Virus record (IMG/VR): IMGVR_UViG_3300029288_001872 | Span: 96,001 to 160,000 of that record | Source of the DNA: a virus | Taxonomy: Duplodnaviria > Caudoviricetes | Reading direction: 5' to 3' (one strand) | Length of the DNA stretch: 64,000 nucleotides | Shown here: positions 40,845 to 62,388 of the stretch, in pieces | Layout: each line of letters opens with the position of its first letter | Position numbering within the stretch: position 1 is the first letter of the stretch | Notes under the pieces: model-generated | Seen by the model: only the letters and a program-made list of their open reading frames with translations | Databases searched by the model: none | Told to the model about the DNA's origin: nothing | Made by a program: the position numbers and the translations under genes

Positions 40845-40959
40845 GGTATGGTCGGGTCAGGTTTGGTATGGTTGGGTCTGGTGTGGTGAGGTCAGGTAGG
40901 GTTAGGTAAGGTGTGGTAAGGTGAGGGTGTAAGTCTAGAAAATTAGGCTTACACAGTTT
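40845..40959 (+). ncRNA. GGT-NN pentamer array (16 perfect units) with 3' hairpin; candidate gapped guide RNA
   Basis: NN = AT CG CA TT AT TG CT GT GA CA AG TA AA GT AA GA; stem 40927-40937 with 40944-40954, then AGTTT. Confidence 0.88.
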
Positions 40960-40986
40960 TAAAGAAATTAAAAAGGAGAATTCAAA

Positions 40987-57764: not shown

Positions 57765-58784
57765 ATGAGTTTATCAGAAGAACAGAGAAAGAAATTGTAT
57801 GATGAACACGCGATGGATGGAGCACATCAACAATCTTACAACAGTAGGGATGCAGGTGGTTTCAAAGGTATCTTTGACAGGGAAAAATGTCAGAAGTATG
57901 GAGTTAATTTCTGGAAGGCTCAACCAGGAGAACATTTAATTGACATTCTTCCATATTTAGCTGGTGAAAATGCGCCTTATGTAGATGGAGTGAAAGCCAA
58001 ACCTGACTCTCCGGCTTATGTGGTGGACATCTATGTGCATCAGAAAGTTGGGATAAATAACGATCAATACATTTGTTTACAGAAATCATATCGCAAGTAT
58101 TGTCCGATTTGTGATGAGATGGAAAAAGGAGAATATACACCAGAAGAATTGGATGGAATGCGTTCTAAACGTAGGGTTATTTATGCTGTTCTAGATTTAG
58201 ATGCAACTTCTAAGGGTGTTCAAATTTGGGAAACTTCTCATTTCAAAATGGAAAAGAAGTTGCAATATCGAGCAAAACGTCCTCGTGGTGGGGGTTATGT
58301 AAACTATTCTCATGCTAAGAATGGGAAGTCTATTGCTTTCACTGTTCTAACAGACCAATATAAAAATTATGATGGTCACGATTTCATTGATAGAGACGGA
58401 CCTATTGATGAAGACCTTTTGGCAAAGGTTCCTTGTCTGGACGATTTGTTGCATATTCCCGATGCTGATGAAGTTAAACGAGCCTTTTTTGGCCAGGAAG
58501 GGGATGAACCAGAACAAGAAATGGTAAAAGAAAGAGAGCCAGAACTAGAAAGAACAATGAAATATGCGCCTGAACCAGAACATGAATCTGGTGATAAAGA
58601 AGAAGTAAAAGAAGTTGCAACAAACAAAAGTAATAAATGTCCAATCGGGGTGACATTCGGGGCTGACTTTGATCAATACGAAGATTGTGACGAATGTGTT
58701 GTTCGTGTTGAATGTAAGCGAGAAAAAGAAGGTCCACCCAAAGATAATGTAACACCTATGCCTCGTCGTAGGAAGAAGGAATAA
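57765..58784 (+). CDS. gp32-like ssDNA-binding protein
   Basis: IDILPY, H...C...CPICD, GVQIW, acidic tail, terminal Cys4 motif. Confidence 0.6.
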   Translation: MSLSEEQRKKLYDEHAMDGAHQQSYNSRDAGGFKGIFDREKCQKYGVNFWKAQPGEHLIDILPYLAGENAPYVDGVKAKPDSPAYVVDIYVHQKVGINNDQYICLQKSYRKYCPICDEMEKGEYTPEELDGMRSKRRVIYAVLDLDATSKGVQIWETSHFKMEKKLQYRAKRPRGGGYVNYSHAKNGKSIAFTVLTDQYKNYDGHDFIDRDGPIDEDLLAKVPCLDDLLHIPDADEVKRAFFGQEGDEPEQEMVKEREPELERTMKYAPEPEHESGDKEEVKEVATNKSNKCPIGVTFGADFDQYEDCDECVVRVECKREKEGPPKDNVTPMPRRRKKE

Positions 58785-58808
58785 ACAGAAACTTTTTCTG
58801 CTGACCTA

Positions 58809-58837
58809 TTGACAAACATTGGGAAAAATTCTACAAT
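58809..58837 (+). promoter_or_regulatory. sigma70-type promoter for the RAMP gene/array locus
   Basis: TTGACA-N17-TACAAT; leader hairpin CCTGTCCCATC/GGTGGGGCAGG at about 58883-58911. Confidence 0.65.
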
Positions 58838-58991
58838 AAAGATAGTCAAAATTTTCATTTCCCATCCTCCTAAACCCCTAACCCTGTCCCATCTGAAAAT
58901 GGTGGGGCAGGAACTTTTGCCAAAAATTAGGCGCTATGTCCCAGCGTTAAACCAAGGGACTTAAACCATAAAAGAGAGAGGTAAGCAAAAA

Positions 58992-59651
58992 ATGGCAGCA
59001 AAGAAAGACGTAACTGGAATTGTTCCAAGAAAAGATGTGGCAATCCCGCCTCCACAATTTCAAACTGTTGAGTTTACAATTGTTGGTGATGCTCCTTATG
59101 TCCAACAAAGATTTTCTCAGAAGGCAATTGAGCAAATCAAGGCGGTCCAACTGGCAGGTTCCAAGAGCAAGAAAGGAAAGGCTCGCGAACCAAAAGATTT
59201 TCAAGAATGTTATGAACAAGCTAAACACATTTCGACAGAAGGCTGGTGTGGTATTCCTGCATCTTCCTTTCGTGCTGCAATGATTTCTGCTTGTCGTTTG
59301 GTTGGGTTTAAGATGACTTTGGCTAAACTTTCAATTTTCATTCCTGCTGATGGTTTTGATGTGGTTGATGGAACACCATTGATTAAGTTTTCTAAAGGCG
59401 AACCGCGCTATGTTGAACACGCTATGAGAATTCCTGGTATTGGTGGCGGAGGTACAGATATTCGCCCTCGTCCGATGTGGGACCCAGGTTGGGAAGCAAA
59501 AGTGCGTGTCACTTTTGATGAGGCGCAATTTTCCGCGGAAGATGTAACCAATTTGATGATGAGGGTTGGTATGCAAGTTGGTTTGGGTGAAGGTCGCCCC
59601 GATTCCAGAAGTAGTGTTGGTATGGGATGGGGGACTTTCCAACTGAAATAA
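58992..59651 (+). CDS. Stand-alone RAMP (Cas7/Csm3-like) protein
   Basis: Beta1 VEFTIVGDAPY; GIPASSFRAAM similar to RAMP IPGSSLKGA; C-terminal G-rich loop GLGEGRP-x5-GMGWGTF. Confidence 0.8.
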   Translation: MAAKKDVTGIVPRKDVAIPPPQFQTVEFTIVGDAPYVQQRFSQKAIEQIKAVQLAGSKSKKGKAREPKDFQECYEQAKHISTEGWCGIPASSFRAAMISACRLVGFKMTLAKLSIFIPADGFDVVDGTPLIKFSKGEPRYVEHAMRIPGIGGGGTDIRPRPMWDPGWEAKVRVTFDEAQFSAEDVTNLMMRVGMQVGLGEGRPDSRSSVGMGWGTFQLK

Positions 59652-59703
59652 AATAAGTGTTCTTGAGGGGGTTCTTATAAAGAGAATCTTCTCAAGAAAT
59701 TAT

Positions 59704-60370
59704 GGCAGGCGTGACGACACAAGTTCAGATAGGGAGAGATGCGTTGGGGTGAGTCTTGGACTGTTAAGGCAGGTAAGACATGGCAAGTAAGACATGGCAA
59801 GTTGCAACCAGATATGTTATGGCGGTTTAAGTTATGGTTCGGCAGGCTATGCTAGTCGGGCTGAGGCTGGTTGAGACCCGTTAGGTTATGGCAGGTGTGA
59901 CATGACAAGTGATATACGATTAGTTGAGTTAGGTTTTGGTTGATCGTGTTATGGTTTGGCAGGCCAAGAGTGATGAGATATGTCTTGGTAGGTTAAATTA
60001 TGGCGGGGAGTATCATGACACGGCAGGTATGACGAGACGCCACGAGAGAAGACAAGGAGTGTTGCTGTGCGACTTAACAAGGCAGGCAATTCCTCCTCTT
60101 GGCTAGTCGGGGCTTGGCAGGCGTGTTGAGACTTTACAAGTTGAGTGTAATGAGTTAAGTTCTGTCACGATAGGGTTAGGCAAAGCAGGTACGACGACAC
60201 AAGTTATGGTAAGTTCTGGGTGTTACAATGTGTTGGGTTCAGGCAAGGGTGGCAGGCTATGCTAGTCAGGTTGAGATTAGTTGAGATGATTTCTGGCGAG
60301 TTAAGACATAGCAGGTAGGATGAGTTACGTCCTGATAAGGTTTGTTCTGTCCTGATTTGTCAAGGCAGGC
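59704..60370 (+). repeat. Array 1: 11 units of degenerate (GNN-NN)n pentamers delimited by (G/A)GCAGG
   Basis: Delimiters at 59704, 59768, 59841, 59890, 59958, 60022, 60081, 60116, 60184, 60251, 60310, 60364; unit lengths 4+5n or within a small indel of it. Confidence 0.9.
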
Positions 60371-60401
60371 AAGATAAATAATTAACCACAAGGAGAACTA
60401 A

Positions 60402-60890
60402 ATGATGGTAAAGAAACATTTGGATGAGTTGAACCAAATTATGGAAGAAAATGGTGGATTACTTCGAGCGGAAGATGTTGTTGAATTCGCCAAAAATCCT
60501 AAGACAACTTTGCATAATGCGTTTGAGTGGGATGATAAGAAGGCTTCTTATAAATGGAGGTTATTTCAAGCCAATCAACTCATCAGAGTTGCAGTTACTA
60601 TTCTCCCAAGAGAAAACCAAGAACCCATTATGGTTCGGCCTTTCGTCAGTTTGAAAGAAGACAGATATAATGGTGGAGGTTATCGTTCCACACTGGAAGT
60701 AATGGAAAGTCCAATTCTCAGAAAAACGCTATTGGATGAAGCTAAAGAGGATATGCAAACTTTCATGGATAAATACAAATCTTTGGAAGAACTTGCGGAA
60801 GTCTTTGTTGCAATGGAACCTTTAATTGTTCCACCACCCACTAAAGGACAAAGAAAGTATAAAAGGGTTGAACAACAATTATCAGCTTGA
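60402..60890 (+). CDS. Conserved phage protein embedded between the two arrays
   Basis: LRAEDVVEFAKNPKTTLHNAFEWDD...WRLFQANQLI; RBS AAGGAG. Confidence 0.7.
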   Translation: MMVKKHLDELNQIMEENGGLLRAEDVVEFAKNPKTTLHNAFEWDDKKASYKWRLFQANQLIRVAVTILPRENQEPIMVRPFVSLKEDRYNGGGYRSTLEVMESPILRKTLLDEAKEDMQTFMDKYKSLEELAEVFVAMEPLIVPPPTKGQRKYKRVEQQLSA

Positions 60891-60900
60891 TGTTTTATAT

Positions 60901-61264
60901 GGCAGGTATGGCACGTTTCGATTTGGTAGGACATGGTGTGTTTGGTCGCATTCTGGTACTTCAAGGCAGGTGTAACAAAGACGAGTCGAGATGAGTTCGG
61001 TTGTGGTGAGTTTTAATATGGAAAGATACGTTGAGGTTCGATACGGCAGGTAAGACAAGATAAGACAAGGAGTGGTGCTACTTGCCCCGATTTGTTAGGT
61101 TGAGGAGTTATACGGCAGGTCAGACGTGTCCGGTTGAGACAAGACATGGTGGGATATGACACGGTTTGTCGGGTTGAGATAAGCAAGGCATGGCAGGCGC
61201 GGCAGGTTGAGGCATGGCGCAATGTGACGTGGTGCGCTGGGGCAAGACAAGAAGAGACATAGCA
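60901..61264 (+). repeat. Array 2: pentamer units delimited by GGCAGG
   Basis: Delimiters at 60901, 60965, 61045, 61114, 61192, 61201 and a terminal AGCA at 61261. Confidence 0.9.
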
Positions 61265-61287
61265 ATTTTATTTTGAAGGAGAAATAA

Positions 61288-62388
61288 ATGGCAGGACCAA
61301 AGAAAAGAGAAATATCAGATACGGTAAGTCAAATCAAAGAAGTTGCAAATTCTCCTATTGTTACTGATGATTCACGGGTGGATTTCCTTGATTCTGGAAG
61401 TACATTGTTGAATTTGGCGGCAAGTCAATTTGGTAAGAATGGAGGTTGGGCGCGAGGTCGAATTATCAATATTGTCGGTGATAAAAGTTCAGGTAAATCA
61501 ATCACTTGCATTGAAGCCTGCGCTAATGCCTTCTACAATATTGGAAAGGTAAAATCAAAAATTTATCCAGATGTCCAACAAATTAATATAGTTTACAATA
61601 ATTCAGAAGGGGTTCTTGACTTCCCAATCGAAACCATGTACGGTAAAGCATTTAATGAGTCGGTCAATTGGATTCAAACGCCGATTGCAGAATCTTTCGG
61701 ACGTGACTTTCAACAACGCCTTGCTGCTTTGAAGAAAGGTGAATTTATGTTATATGTTGTTGATTCAATTGATTCTTTGGTGTCTGAGGCTGCCGCAAAA
61801 AGAATGAGTCAAGTGTTGTCAGATAAAAAAGTAGATGGTAGTTATGGTGTTGAAAAAGCAAAATTTTTTAGTTCTGAATTCTTTAATCATCTTTGTGGAG
61901 CAATGAAGGGGAAAGATGCGACATTGATTTGTGTGTCTCAAGTTAGAGAAAATATCTCCACAATCAGTTTTGGAGAACGATATTATCGCACTGGTGGAAA
62001 GGCATTTGATTTTTATAGTCATCAAGTTTGTTGGCTTGCAGTTGTTGAAAAATTAAAAAAGACATTTCGTGGTCAAGAAAGAGTATACGGTGTAAAAACA
62101 CGAGCAAGATTTAAGAAATCTAAAGTATCAAAACCTTTCAGAGAAGCAGATTTTACAATTTTATTTGACTATGGTTTAGACAATGTTTCATCATTGGTTG
62201 ATTATTATTTCGGTCCAAAAGCGAAAGAAATTGAATGGAAAAACGAAAAGTTAAAAACACAAGATTTTCTCCAGCGGCTTGATAATTCACCAGAAGATTT
62301 GGAACTTTTGAAAGACTTGGTTGAAAAAGATTGGCTTGAAATTGAAGAACATGTCAAACCGGAACGCAAACCGAGGTGGACAGATTAA
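61288..62388 (+). CDS. recA: RecA/UvsX-like recombinase
   Basis: DSGST, GDKSSGKS, VVDSI, SQVRENI, TGGKAFDFY, SKVSKPFRE. Confidence 0.93.
   Translation: MAGPKKREISDTVSQIKEVANSPIVTDDSRVDFLDSGSTLLNLAASQFGKNGGWARGRIINIVGDKSSGKSITCIEACANAFYNIGKVKSKIYPDVQQINIVYNNSEGVLDFPIETMYGKAFNESVNWIQTPIAESFGRDFQQRLAALKKGEFMLYVVDSIDSLVSEAAAKRMSQVLSDKKVDGSYGVEKAKFFSSEFFNHLCGAMKGKDATLICVSQVRENISTISFGERYYRTGGKAFDFYSHQVCWLAVVEKLKKTFRGQERVYGVKTRARFKKSKVSKPFREADFTILFDYGLDNVSSLVDYYFGPKAKEIEWKNEKLKTQDFLQRLDNSPEDLELLKDLVEKDWLEIEEHVKPERKPRWTD

What the first reader, a model, noticed from the sequence alone, without database searches (positions are those of the whole stretch)
58992..61264. Stand-alone Cas7-like RAMP gene with non-CRISPR pentamer arrays: candidate RNA-guided system using a gapped code
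Seen: a promoter, a 219-aa RAMP-fold gene, a hairpin (59660-59698), array 1, a 162-aa gene and array 2, with no other cas genes and no repeat-spacer CRISPR. Each unit is (G/A)GCA followed mostly by 9-15 pentamers. Each pentamer is a mostly G-starting triplet (GGT, GGC, GAC, GAT, GTT, GTC) plus a free dinucleotide. Established: Cas7-group RAMPs polymerise along guide RNA with a fixed period. Inference: each subunit grips one triplet and displays one NN, GGCA marks processing boundaries, and each unit is one guide. From memory, a recently reported phage RAMP + GGY/NN RNA family (VIPR) has this architecture, so novelty should be checked against it. The degenerate triplets and GGCA-delimited multi-guide arrays may be a variant.
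Basis: partly seen in the sequence, partly recalled or inferred. Interest (0 to 1): 0.97.

Follow-up and report, generated by a model that had tools for sequence, protein, structure and literature searches.

The report
Phage VIPR system, staggered guide arrays
This is a real RNA-guided VIPR system (a lone Cas7-like protein, a small partner gene and two arrays of five-base-coded guide RNAs) of the kind first described in 2026 preprints, carried on a 2.4-kb cassette in a 190-kb uncultured phage, and one guide exactly spells a recombinase gene of rival phages, so it is a well-supported new member of a known kind.

Summary
The stretch has a promoter, a 219-aa gene, a 17-bp hairpin, an 11-unit pentamer array, a 162-aa gene and a 5-6-unit array. 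There are no cas genes and no CRISPR array.

- **Protein:** it folds as a Cas7/Csm3 RAMP (Z about 12). It is homologous to the characterised SUSP1 Vipr: hhalign 94-95%, a PDB entry named "SUSP1 Vipr protein" at E 6.8e-6, and the same phrog_4652.
- **Array units:** they run G-[A/G/T]-Y-NN, end in GGCAG, and overlap the next unit by 1 nt. That fits the "staggered vrRNA arrays" of the VIPR preprint.
- **Target:** read by the published 1-nt-skip rule, unit 61118-61182 matches 26/26 bases in the uvsX/recA genes of five other viral contigs. The phage's own uvsX is mismatched.
- **Mobility:** two sister phages lack the whole 2.36-kb cassette.
- **Conservation:** seven related loci all keep vipr, this partner gene and an adjacent period-5 array.

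Beyond the finding, the same genome has one vipr gene but at least nine dispersed, terminator-tailed (GGT-NN)n solo guides.

Verdict: a new member of a known kind. This scan has already met staggered-array VIPR systems in several other genomes. Array-1 targets remain unknown.

The parts
58809..58837 (+). Sigma-70-like promoter, shared with VIPR-less sister phages, where it drives uvsX directly
   Evidence: 11/12 consensus match. It is conserved in L025 and L026.
58885..58911 (+). Leader hairpin of the ancestral uvsX transcript, just upstream of the cassette's left junction
   Evidence: -20.7 kcal/mol, z -5.2. It is kept in L025 and L026, with altered loop and stem bases.
58914..61273 (.). 2.36-kb VIPR cassette (vipr, array 1, vap, array 2) that two sister phages lack
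   Evidence: In L025 (UvsX 97% aa) and L026 (66%), the promoter/leader joins straight to the uvsX ribosome-binding site.
58992..59651 (+). vipr: 219-aa minimal RAMP, the only one in the 190-kb genome
   Evidence: AF2 pLDDT 94. Csm3/Cmr4/Cas7 hits at Z about 12. hhalign to SUSP1 Vipr 94-95%, E about 1e-7. PDB 36pp 'SUSP1 Vipr protein' E 6.8e-6. phrog_4652 shared with SUSP1 Vipr. A single genomic hit.
59660..59698 (+). 17-bp hairpin between vipr and array 1, with no U-tract after it
   Evidence: -21.7 kcal/mol, z -6.8. Its role (stability or processing element) is inferred.
59704..60385 (+). Array 1: 11 staggered vrRNA units bounded by (G/A)GCAG, with a 14-nt tandem duplication at 59768-59802
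   Evidence: Lag-5 periodicity, segmentation, Tandem Repeats Finder. Targets were not identified.
60402..60890 (+). vap-like accessory gene: 162 aa, phrog_15946, FEWDD motif, winged-helix-like N-terminal 100 residues
   Evidence: A homologue lies within about 1.3 kb downstream of vipr in 7 of 7 related loci. VIA Z 5-6.7, winged-helix chains only. It is not similar to SUSP1 vap1.
60901..61264 (+). Array 2: five full units plus one 9-nt mini-unit
61118..61182 (+). Guide with a proven natural match: 13 pentamers whose NN, read with a 1-nt skip, equal 26/26 bases of uvsX/recA in five IMG/VR contigs
   Evidence: in frame, coding strand, QVREKIGITFGD. Controls: every other reading position or skip length gives at most 21/26.
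60970..61117 (+). Two guides (60970 and 61049) that spell other UvsX motifs
   Evidence: 12/16 and 10/14 degenerate-codon matches to UvsX homologues, against shuffled maxima of 10 and 9. 24/32 and 21/28 bases in L028, L029 and L026.
61288..62388 (+). The phage's own uvsX, now downstream of array 2. Its copy of the 61118 target site is mismatched and one codon longer.
   Evidence: Pfam RecA and phrog_97. Own site 61939-61980 reads QVRENISTISFGER. By hand count it matches about 15/26 bases.
19703..19810 (+). Solo vrRNA: 12 GGT-NN pentamers, then GGG, a 15-bp hairpin and U-rich run
   Evidence: Its NN match 19/24 bases of the gene end 82 nt upstream.
40845..40960 (+). Solo vrRNA: 16 perfect GGT-NN pentamers, then GGG, an 11-bp hairpin and UUUU
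   Evidence: Its NN match 21/32 bases of the gene end 10 nt upstream.

Best explanation
This is a VIPR (Viral Interference Programmable Repeat) system with staggered guide arrays.

Shown here:
- The 219-aa protein is a Vipr, a minimal Cas7-like RAMP homologous to the characterised SUSP1 Vipr.
- Each array unit is a run of about 10-16 pentamers G-D-Y-N-N that ends in GGCAG. The last G of that motif doubles as the first base of the next unit.
- At least one unit, read with positions 4-5 as codon positions 1-2 and every third target base skipped, equals a conserved uvsX/recA motif of other phages, while the phage's own uvsX escapes.
- The whole locus is a cassette that sister phages lack.

Inferred, from the published mechanism for SUSP1:
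- The arrays are transcribed from the old uvsX promoter and cut at the GGCAG junctions.
- One Vipr protomer binds each pentamer, burying the triplet and presenting the NN.
- The filament then binds double-stranded DNA of a co-infecting rival phage and silences transcription of essential genes such as uvsX.
- The locus has no nuclease. The partner protein looks like a winged-helix nucleic-acid binder and probably assists.
For: Protein identity:
- Fold: Foldseek top hits are all Csm3/Cas7. VIA gives Z 12.2-10.
- Homology to an experimentally characterised Vipr: the profile hits SUSP1 ORF agp039 at E 2.3e-7, and that SUSP1 locus shows the published one upstream plus three downstream vrRNAs. hhalign gives 94-95% over the full length. 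PDB 36pp_D 'SUSP1 Vipr protein' scores E 6.8e-6. Both proteins fall in phrog_4652.

Arrays:
- Lag-5 periodicity, the pentamer logo and the 1-nt overlap at unit junctions.
- Units are unstructured: z -1.2 and +0.9.

Target:
- Five exact 26-base hits, all in frame inside uvsX/recA.
- Loci fetched independently through UvsX homology give 24/26 and 22/26, and only for positions 4-5 with skip 1.
- Two further array-2 units spell UvsX motifs above shuffled controls.

Conservation and context:
- 7 of 7 related loci have vipr, this vap and an adjacent period-5 array. Most carry (G/C)GCAGG junctions.
- Sister phages lack the cassette.
- The published mechanism is read.
Against: - No expression, processing or binding data exist for this locus.
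- Only one of about 16 units has an exact database target.
- Four other array units gave no exact hit in viral contigs, and two of them none in genomes.
- Array-1 units match neither UvsX, Vipr nor Vap homologues above shuffled controls.
- Position 2 of the triplet is not G in two thirds of pentamers, unlike the canonical GGY.
- The VIPR type (I-VII) could not be assigned, because the preprint's supplementary tables are not held.
- The vap fold match is weak, Z below 8.
Confidence: 0.9

Rival explanations
1. The locus is a decaying or inactive VIPR remnant. The vipr gene persists, but the arrays have drifted: position 2 is degenerate, and there are internal frame slips and a mini-unit. They no longer act as guides.
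For: - Position 2 carries only 0.27 bits of information, and several units have internal -1 shifts or poor pentamers, for example 60081-60115.
- Most units have no identified target.
Against: - A 26/26 in-frame match to rival uvsX cannot survive drift.
- G1 (86%), Y3 (91%) and the junction motif are maintained.
- C is excluded from position 2 (3%), which points to selection rather than drift.
- The residue that stacks on G2 in SUSP1 (Trp178) aligns to a Gly that is invariant across this clade. Relaxed position 2 therefore looks like a clade property.
- The vipr and vap ORFs are intact, and the models are confident.
Confidence: 0.05
2. The pentamer arrays are DNA-level or protein-binding elements (bent DNA, a centromere-like or Chi-like array, a transcription attenuator). 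They merely sit beside an RNA-binding RAMP and are not guide RNAs.
For: - The tracts are strongly strand-biased and G-rich with a fixed period.
- A hairpin precedes array 1.
Against: - The variable dinucleotides carry target information under the published code.
- The same arrangement recurs next to vipr homologues down to 32% identity.
- In SUSP1 such tracts are expressed and co-purify with Vipr.
Confidence: 0.02
3. It is a degenerate or minimal class 1 CRISPR-Cas module (type III or type IV-like) that has lost its other genes.
For: The best structural matches are Csm3, Cmr4 and type VII Cas7.
Against: - There is no repeat-spacer array.
- There is no Cas1 and no Pfam RAMP-family hit anywhere in the genome.
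- PADLOC and NCBIfam give nothing.
- Sequence homology runs to Vipr, not to any Cas7 family.
Confidence: 0.01

Closest known systems
VIPR systems with staggered vrRNA arrays (bioRxiv 10.64898/2026.04.26.720920, fig. S18 legend and type-classification methods)
   Same: - Phage-borne two-gene locus (vipr plus an accessory gene).
- Long flanking non-coding arrays of pentamers, with units abutting through a 1-nt overlap.
- Relaxed repeat consensus.
- 1-nt-skip reading, with skip bases on codon wobble positions.
- Targets in competing phages.
   Different: - The type (I-VII) is not assignable here.
- The triplet is G-[A/G/T]-Y rather than GGY.
- The junction motif GGCAG and its conservation across the clade are documented here from sequence only.
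- The cassette sits between the uvsX promoter and uvsX, and carries anti-uvsX guides.
Type II VIPR of Escherichia phage SUSP1 (Vipr, vap1, four vrRNAs; structures in bioRxiv 10.64898/2026.04.26.720927; PDB 36pp)
   Same: - Homologous Vipr (phrog_4652) with an RRM core.
- The G-loop Asp/Glu-x-Arg-Pro, the thumb Arg (R138 aligns to R160) and the Y3-contact Arg (R179 aligns to R202) are retained.
- The solo guides elsewhere in this genome copy the SUSP1 layout: a strict GGT-NN tract plus a structured 3' tail.
   Different: - About 19% identity.
- The G2-stacking Trp178 aligns to an invariant Gly, and there is an 8-residue insertion after the G-loop.
- The accessory gene is unrelated (phrog_15946 versus phrog_5926).
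- The vipr-adjacent guides lack hairpin or pseudoknot tails and are concatenated.
Cas7-family backbone subunits of class 1 CRISPR effectors (Csm3, Cmr4, type VII Cas7)
   Same: - The same RAMP fold (Z about 12).
- Polymerisation along a guide with a fixed period.
- Thumb-induced base flipping.
   Different: - Period 5 with three bases buried, instead of period 6 with one base flipped.
- No repeat-derived handle, no Cas partners and no spacer acquisition genes.

Membership tests
VIPR system | A Vipr protein homologous to characterised Vipr proteins | tested here: met
   - Profile against the SUSP1 genome: E 2.3e-7.
- hhalign: 94.2-94.7%, full length.
- PDB 36pp_D 'SUSP1 Vipr protein': E 6.8e-6.
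- Both proteins fall in phrog_4652.
VIPR system | A minimal single-RRM RAMP fold with a glycine-rich loop and a thumb | tested here: met
   - pLDDT 94.
- Z 12.2-10 over 150 residues to Cmr4, Csm3 and Cas7.
- The C-terminal loop is Gly-rich, with invariant G193, G201, R202 and G214.
- The thumb is inferred only from the beta-hairpins at 129-146 and 155-176 and from the alignment of R160 to SUSP1 R138. It was not inspected in 3D.
VIPR system | A minimal locus: vipr plus an accessory gene, no other cas genes, no CRISPR array, long flanking non-coding DNA | tested here: met
   - ORF map.
- No Cas1 or Pfam RAMP in the genome.
- No repeat-spacer array.
- vap is conserved in 7 of 7 related loci.
VIPR system | vrRNA genes made of tandem pentamers, with a conserved triplet (GGY or a related consensus) alternating with a hypervariable NN | tested here: met
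   199 pentamers: G 86% / D / Y 91% / N / N. Position 2 is relaxed. The preprint allows related consensuses such as NNNGG, YNNNG and NNNNG.
VIPR system | Targets follow the 1-nt-skip rule (NN x NN x ...), with skips on wobble positions | tested here: met
   - Unit 61118 matches 26/26 bases in five viral uvsX genes, in frame.
- Other skip lengths or reading positions give at most 21/26.
- This is shown for one unit exactly and supported for two more.
VIPR system | vrRNAs are expressed, processed and co-purify with Vipr, and the complex binds dsDNA and represses transcription | not testable with these tools
   This needs small-RNA sequencing, pull-down and reporter assays.
VIPR system, staggered-array architecture | Adjacent vrRNAs share a 1-nt overlap, so the end of one marks the start of the next | tested here: met
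   - Most units are followed by a -1 frame step at GGCAG|G.
- GGCAGG spacing is 4 mod 5 in most cases, here and in L001, L002, L010 and L011, where it holds for 19 of 27.
- Only the figure legend of the preprint could be read.
VIPR type II (SUSP1-like) | A vap1 accessory gene, and vrRNAs with strict GGY plus a conserved structured 3' tail next to vipr | tested here: not met
   - vap is unrelated to vap1, and there is no phrog_5926 in the genome.
- The adjacent arrays have no tails.
- The dispersed solo guides do have that layout.
Hammerhead-interspersed VIPR arrays | Hammerhead ribozymes between the guides | tested here: not met
   No Rfam family matches at E up to 1 in 58700-61400.
Class 1 CRISPR-Cas | A repeat-spacer array plus multi-subunit cas genes | tested here: not met

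The most novel reading that the evidence does not exclude
A single Vipr with a relaxed second-base pocket (the G2-stacking Trp is replaced by an invariant Gly) may serve two differently made guide classes in one 190-kb phage.

- Class 1: about 16 concatenated, junction-processed guides inside a mobile cassette, aimed at distant rivals' core genes such as uvsX.
- Class 2: at least nine stand-alone, terminator-tailed strict GGT-NN guides scattered through the genome. Each sits just downstream of a gene whose variant 3' end it spells.

That would make VIPR a genome-wide network of guide-plus-escape-allele units, not one locus. None of five related phage records searched whole has such solo guides.
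Probability: 0.4. Interest if true: 0.7.

Novelty: new member of a known kind. Interest (0 to 1): 0.5.

Why it matters
VIPR is a months-old discovery, and its natural biology rests on a few clades. This locus adds four things.

- **A natural target.** A staggered-array guide is matched exactly to a rival phage's recombinase gene, and the carrier's own allele escapes. This ties the published gapped code to a degenerate-triplet clade.
- **Evidence of mobility.** The whole system moves as a 2.4-kb cassette that hijacks an existing promoter.
- **A structural rationale.** The Trp-to-Gly change in the G-loop offers a reason why the second triplet base is free in this clade.
- **A compact test bed.** One Vipr and two guide architectures allow a direct test of how vrRNAs are made and loaded.

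None of this changes what kind of system it is.

Tried and rejected
Target searches that found nothing:
- Exact 1-nt-skip patterns for units 61049, 60905, 59708, the 60970 core and solo S4 found nothing in viral contigs.
- Units 59708 and 60905 found nothing in genome contigs.
- Only unit 61118 matches the uvsX-bearing target contigs G004, G007 and G008.
- Array-1 units do not match the phage's own genome above background, the sister loci, or Vipr and Vap homologues in sense or antisense.

An ambiguous hit:
- Unit 60026 gave one exact 22-base hit. It lies in frame in an NlpC/P60-like ORF of a GC-54%, 175-kb microbial-mat contig.
- By my own rough estimate, about 0.1 such hits are expected by chance in a collection of that size. 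I do not count it as a target.

Ideas rejected:
- A second Vipr that would serve the solo guides: not found with the clade profile, SUSP1 Vipr or phrog_4652.
- Position 2 of the pentamer as an encoder of the skipped base: 3 of 12 agreements in unit 61118, counted by hand. This is chance level.

Technical dead ends:
- The vap fold got nothing from Foldseek.
- The genome search does not draw relatives for a virus record.
- The preprint's supplementary tables are not held, so no VIPR type was assigned.
Full report
**1. What is there**

The window is part of a complete 189,632-bp, 34% GC uncultured phage genome. The finding lies between a gp32-like gene (57765-58784) and a UvsX/RecA-like gene (61288-62388).
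- a strong sigma-70-like promoter at 58809-58837;
- a 219-aa ORF at 58992-59651;
- a 17-bp hairpin at 59660-59698 (-21.7 kcal/mol, z -6.8);
- a non-coding stretch at 59704-60385;
- a 162-aa ORF at 60402-60890;
- a second non-coding stretch at 60901-61264.

Both non-coding stretches have a sharp 5-nt period. Identity at lag 5 is 0.40-0.42, against 0.20-0.28 at neighbouring lags, and the ORFs lack the signal. A frame-tracking segmentation gives 199 pentamers:
- position 1 is G in 86%;
- position 2 is A, G or T in equal shares, with C at 3%;
- position 3 is a pyrimidine in 91%;
- positions 4-5 are close to free.

Units of about 10-16 pentamers end in (G/A)GCAG. The next unit usually starts on the last G of that motif, so GGCAGG spacing is mostly 5k-1. 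Array 1 has 11 units, one of them poor, plus a 14-nt tandem duplication. Array 2 has five full units and a 9-nt mini-unit. The units are unstructured as RNA (z -1.2 and +0.9). No Rfam family, hammerheads included, matches the region. The genome has no Cas1, no Pfam RAMP hit and no repeat-spacer array.

**2. The protein is a Vipr**

Pfam, NCBIfam, PADLOC and a single-sequence PDB search find nothing. The protein nevertheless has thousands of metagenomic homologues.

- **Fold.** With an 87-sequence alignment, AlphaFold2 gives pLDDT 94. All top Foldseek hits are Csm3/Cas7. VIA gives Z 12.2-10 over about 150 residues to Cmr4, Csm3 and type VII Cas7.
- **Link to SUSP1.** The VIPR preprint characterised the system of Escherichia phage SUSP1. 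The clade profile hits one SUSP1 ORF, agp039, at E 2.3e-7. That ORF is flanked by one upstream and three downstream GGT-NN RNAs, exactly as published.
- **Further support.** Profile-sequence alignment is full-length at 94-95% probability. The profile also hits PDB 36pp, which the depositors named "SUSP1 Vipr protein", at E 6.8e-6. Both proteins fall in phrog_4652.

Mapping the published RNA contacts through the alignment:

| SUSP1 residue | Published role | Aligned residue here | Status in this clade |
|---|---|---|---|
| Asp177 | reads G1 | Glu200 | majority residue in the alignment consensus |
| Arg179 | reads Y3 | Arg202 | invariant |
| Arg138 | thumb, contacts G2 | Arg160 | nearly invariant |
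| Trp178 | stacks on G2 | Gly201 | invariant Gly |

As an inference, this fits a logo that keeps G1 and Y3 but frees position 2.

**3. The arrays are vrRNA arrays of the staggered kind**

The preprint describes three relevant features: vrRNAs of 9-16 pentamers; alternative consensuses (NNNGG, YNNNG, NNNNG); and "staggered arrays", in which neighbouring vrRNAs overlap by 1 nt so that the end of one marks the start of the next. The -1 step at GGCAG|G is that layout.

It is a property of the clade. Seven related loci were examined: Cyanophage Cy-LDV1, Gordonia phage Ecliptus and five IMG/VR contigs.
- All seven have vipr, a homologue of the 162-aa gene within about 1.3 kb, and an adjacent period-5 array.
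- Most have (G/C)GCAGG junctions spaced 4 mod 5, for example 19 of 27 spacings in L011.

**4. The code works here, and one target is identified**

A note from this scan suggested that array-2 dinucleotides spell RecA motifs. I tested this.
- **Exact match.** Unit 61118-61182 was read as NN x NN x .... It gave five exact 26-base matches in IMG/VR. All lie in frame, on the coding strand, inside UvsX/RecA-like genes only 35% identical to this phage's UvsX (QVREKIGITFGD). By my own estimate, 26 fixed bases are expected far less than once by chance in that collection.
- **Extent of the guide.** The match stops exactly at the 13 pentamers. The trailing (A)GCaa-GGCat-GGCag does not pair, so GGCAG behaves as a handle.
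- **Controls.** On the target contig, and on two UvsX loci fetched independently by protein homology, only positions 4-5 with skip 1 score high (26/26, 24/26 and 22/26). Every other reading position or skip length gives at most 21/26.
- **Self-escape.** The phage's own site (61939-61980, QVRENISTISFGER) is one codon longer. By hand count it matches about 15/26, below the preprint's 80% threshold.
- **Two more units.** Units 60970 and 61049 spell other UvsX motifs above shuffled controls: 12/16 against 10, and 10/14 against 9.

Array-1 targets were not found. A single 22-base hit of unit 60026, in a bacterial-looking NlpC/P60 gene, may be chance.

**5. The locus is a cassette**

Two sister contigs (UvsX 97% and 66% identical) keep gp32, the promoter and its leader hairpin, and then run straight into the uvsX ribosome-binding site. 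Window ~58914-61273 is absent from them. The VIPR module therefore sits as a 2.36-kb insertion or deletion between the uvsX promoter and uvsX. It is presumably transcribed from that promoter. It also carries guides against other phages' uvsX.

**6. The accessory gene**

The 162-aa protein (phrog_15946, invariant FEWDD-region residues) is unrelated to SUSP1 vap1. Its model has pLDDT 85. Foldseek finds nothing. An exhaustive VIA search returns mainly winged-helix nucleic-acid-binding domains over residues 1-103, at a weak Z of 5-6.7. A sub-threshold Pfam EAP30 hit points the same way. This fits the preprint's statement that several types carry DNA-binding vap genes, but it is not proof.

**7. 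Beyond the finding**

The genome has only one vipr. It also has at least nine stand-alone guides on the + strand.
- Each has 12-21 strict GGT-NN pentamers (GGT in 94%), then GGG, a hairpin of variable sequence and a U-run.
- Two lie in this window, at 19703 and 40845.
- For four of the nine, one of the three best own-genome matches under the skip rule lies within 8-301 nt upstream, in frame, in the preceding gene. These solos therefore spell variants of the neighbouring gene's end, as other notes of this scan proposed.
- In five related phage records, GGY runs occur only next to vipr.

Whether the one Vipr loads both guide classes is open.

**8. Verdict**

This is a genuine VIPR system, a known kind since the 2026 preprints. 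This scan has already met the staggered-array form in several other genomes. Here it is a well-supported new member, with an identified natural target, a defined cassette boundary and a plausible structural reason for its relaxed triplet. Expression, processing at GGCAG, Vipr loading and silencing are all inferred from SUSP1 and not shown here.

Noticed in passing
window 19703-19810 and 40845-40960 (also genome 1116, 12072, 185027, 186370, 187584, 188736, 188839): There are at least nine stand-alone (GGT-NN)12-21 guides, each ending in GGG, a variable-sequence hairpin and a U-run. All are on the + strand and intergenic. For four of them, the skip-rule reading matches the 3' end of the gene just upstream at 19/24 to 27/38 bases.
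   Followed up: partly
window 58914-61273 versus L025 and L026: The whole VIPR locus is an insertion or deletion relative to two sister phages. It lies between the uvsX promoter/leader and the uvsX ribosome-binding site, and both junctions share a short TTTTG microhomology.
   Followed up: yes
L014-L018 (IMG/VR contigs, GC 47%; G007 is 44 kb): These rival-phage contigs carry a uvsX that matches guide 61118 exactly. No other guide of this phage matches the parts of those contigs that are available (at most 47% complete).
   Followed up: partly
L032 6805-6836 (175-kb microbial-mat contig, GC 54%): Unit 60026 matches 22/22 bases, in frame (MDADKKVAALK), in a secreted NlpC/P60-like gene. It is a single hit and could be chance.
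   Followed up: partly
window 59768-59802: A 14-nt tandem duplication (2.5 copies) inside one guide unit shifts the pentamer frame by -1. Units 59704/60184 and 59841/60251 share their 5' halves, which suggests that guides arise by duplication and divergence.
   Followed up: no
L012 (genome 182000-189632): Five of the solo guides are interleaved with a sugar-nucleotide and glycosyltransferase gene cluster at the right end of the genome.
   Followed up: no
window 58885-58911: The stable leader hairpin upstream of uvsX/vipr is conserved in sister phages, with changed loop and stem bases.
   Followed up: no
L008 3600-3950: A relative in the same Vipr clade uses CGCAGG rather than GGCAGG as the unit junction.
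   Followed up: no
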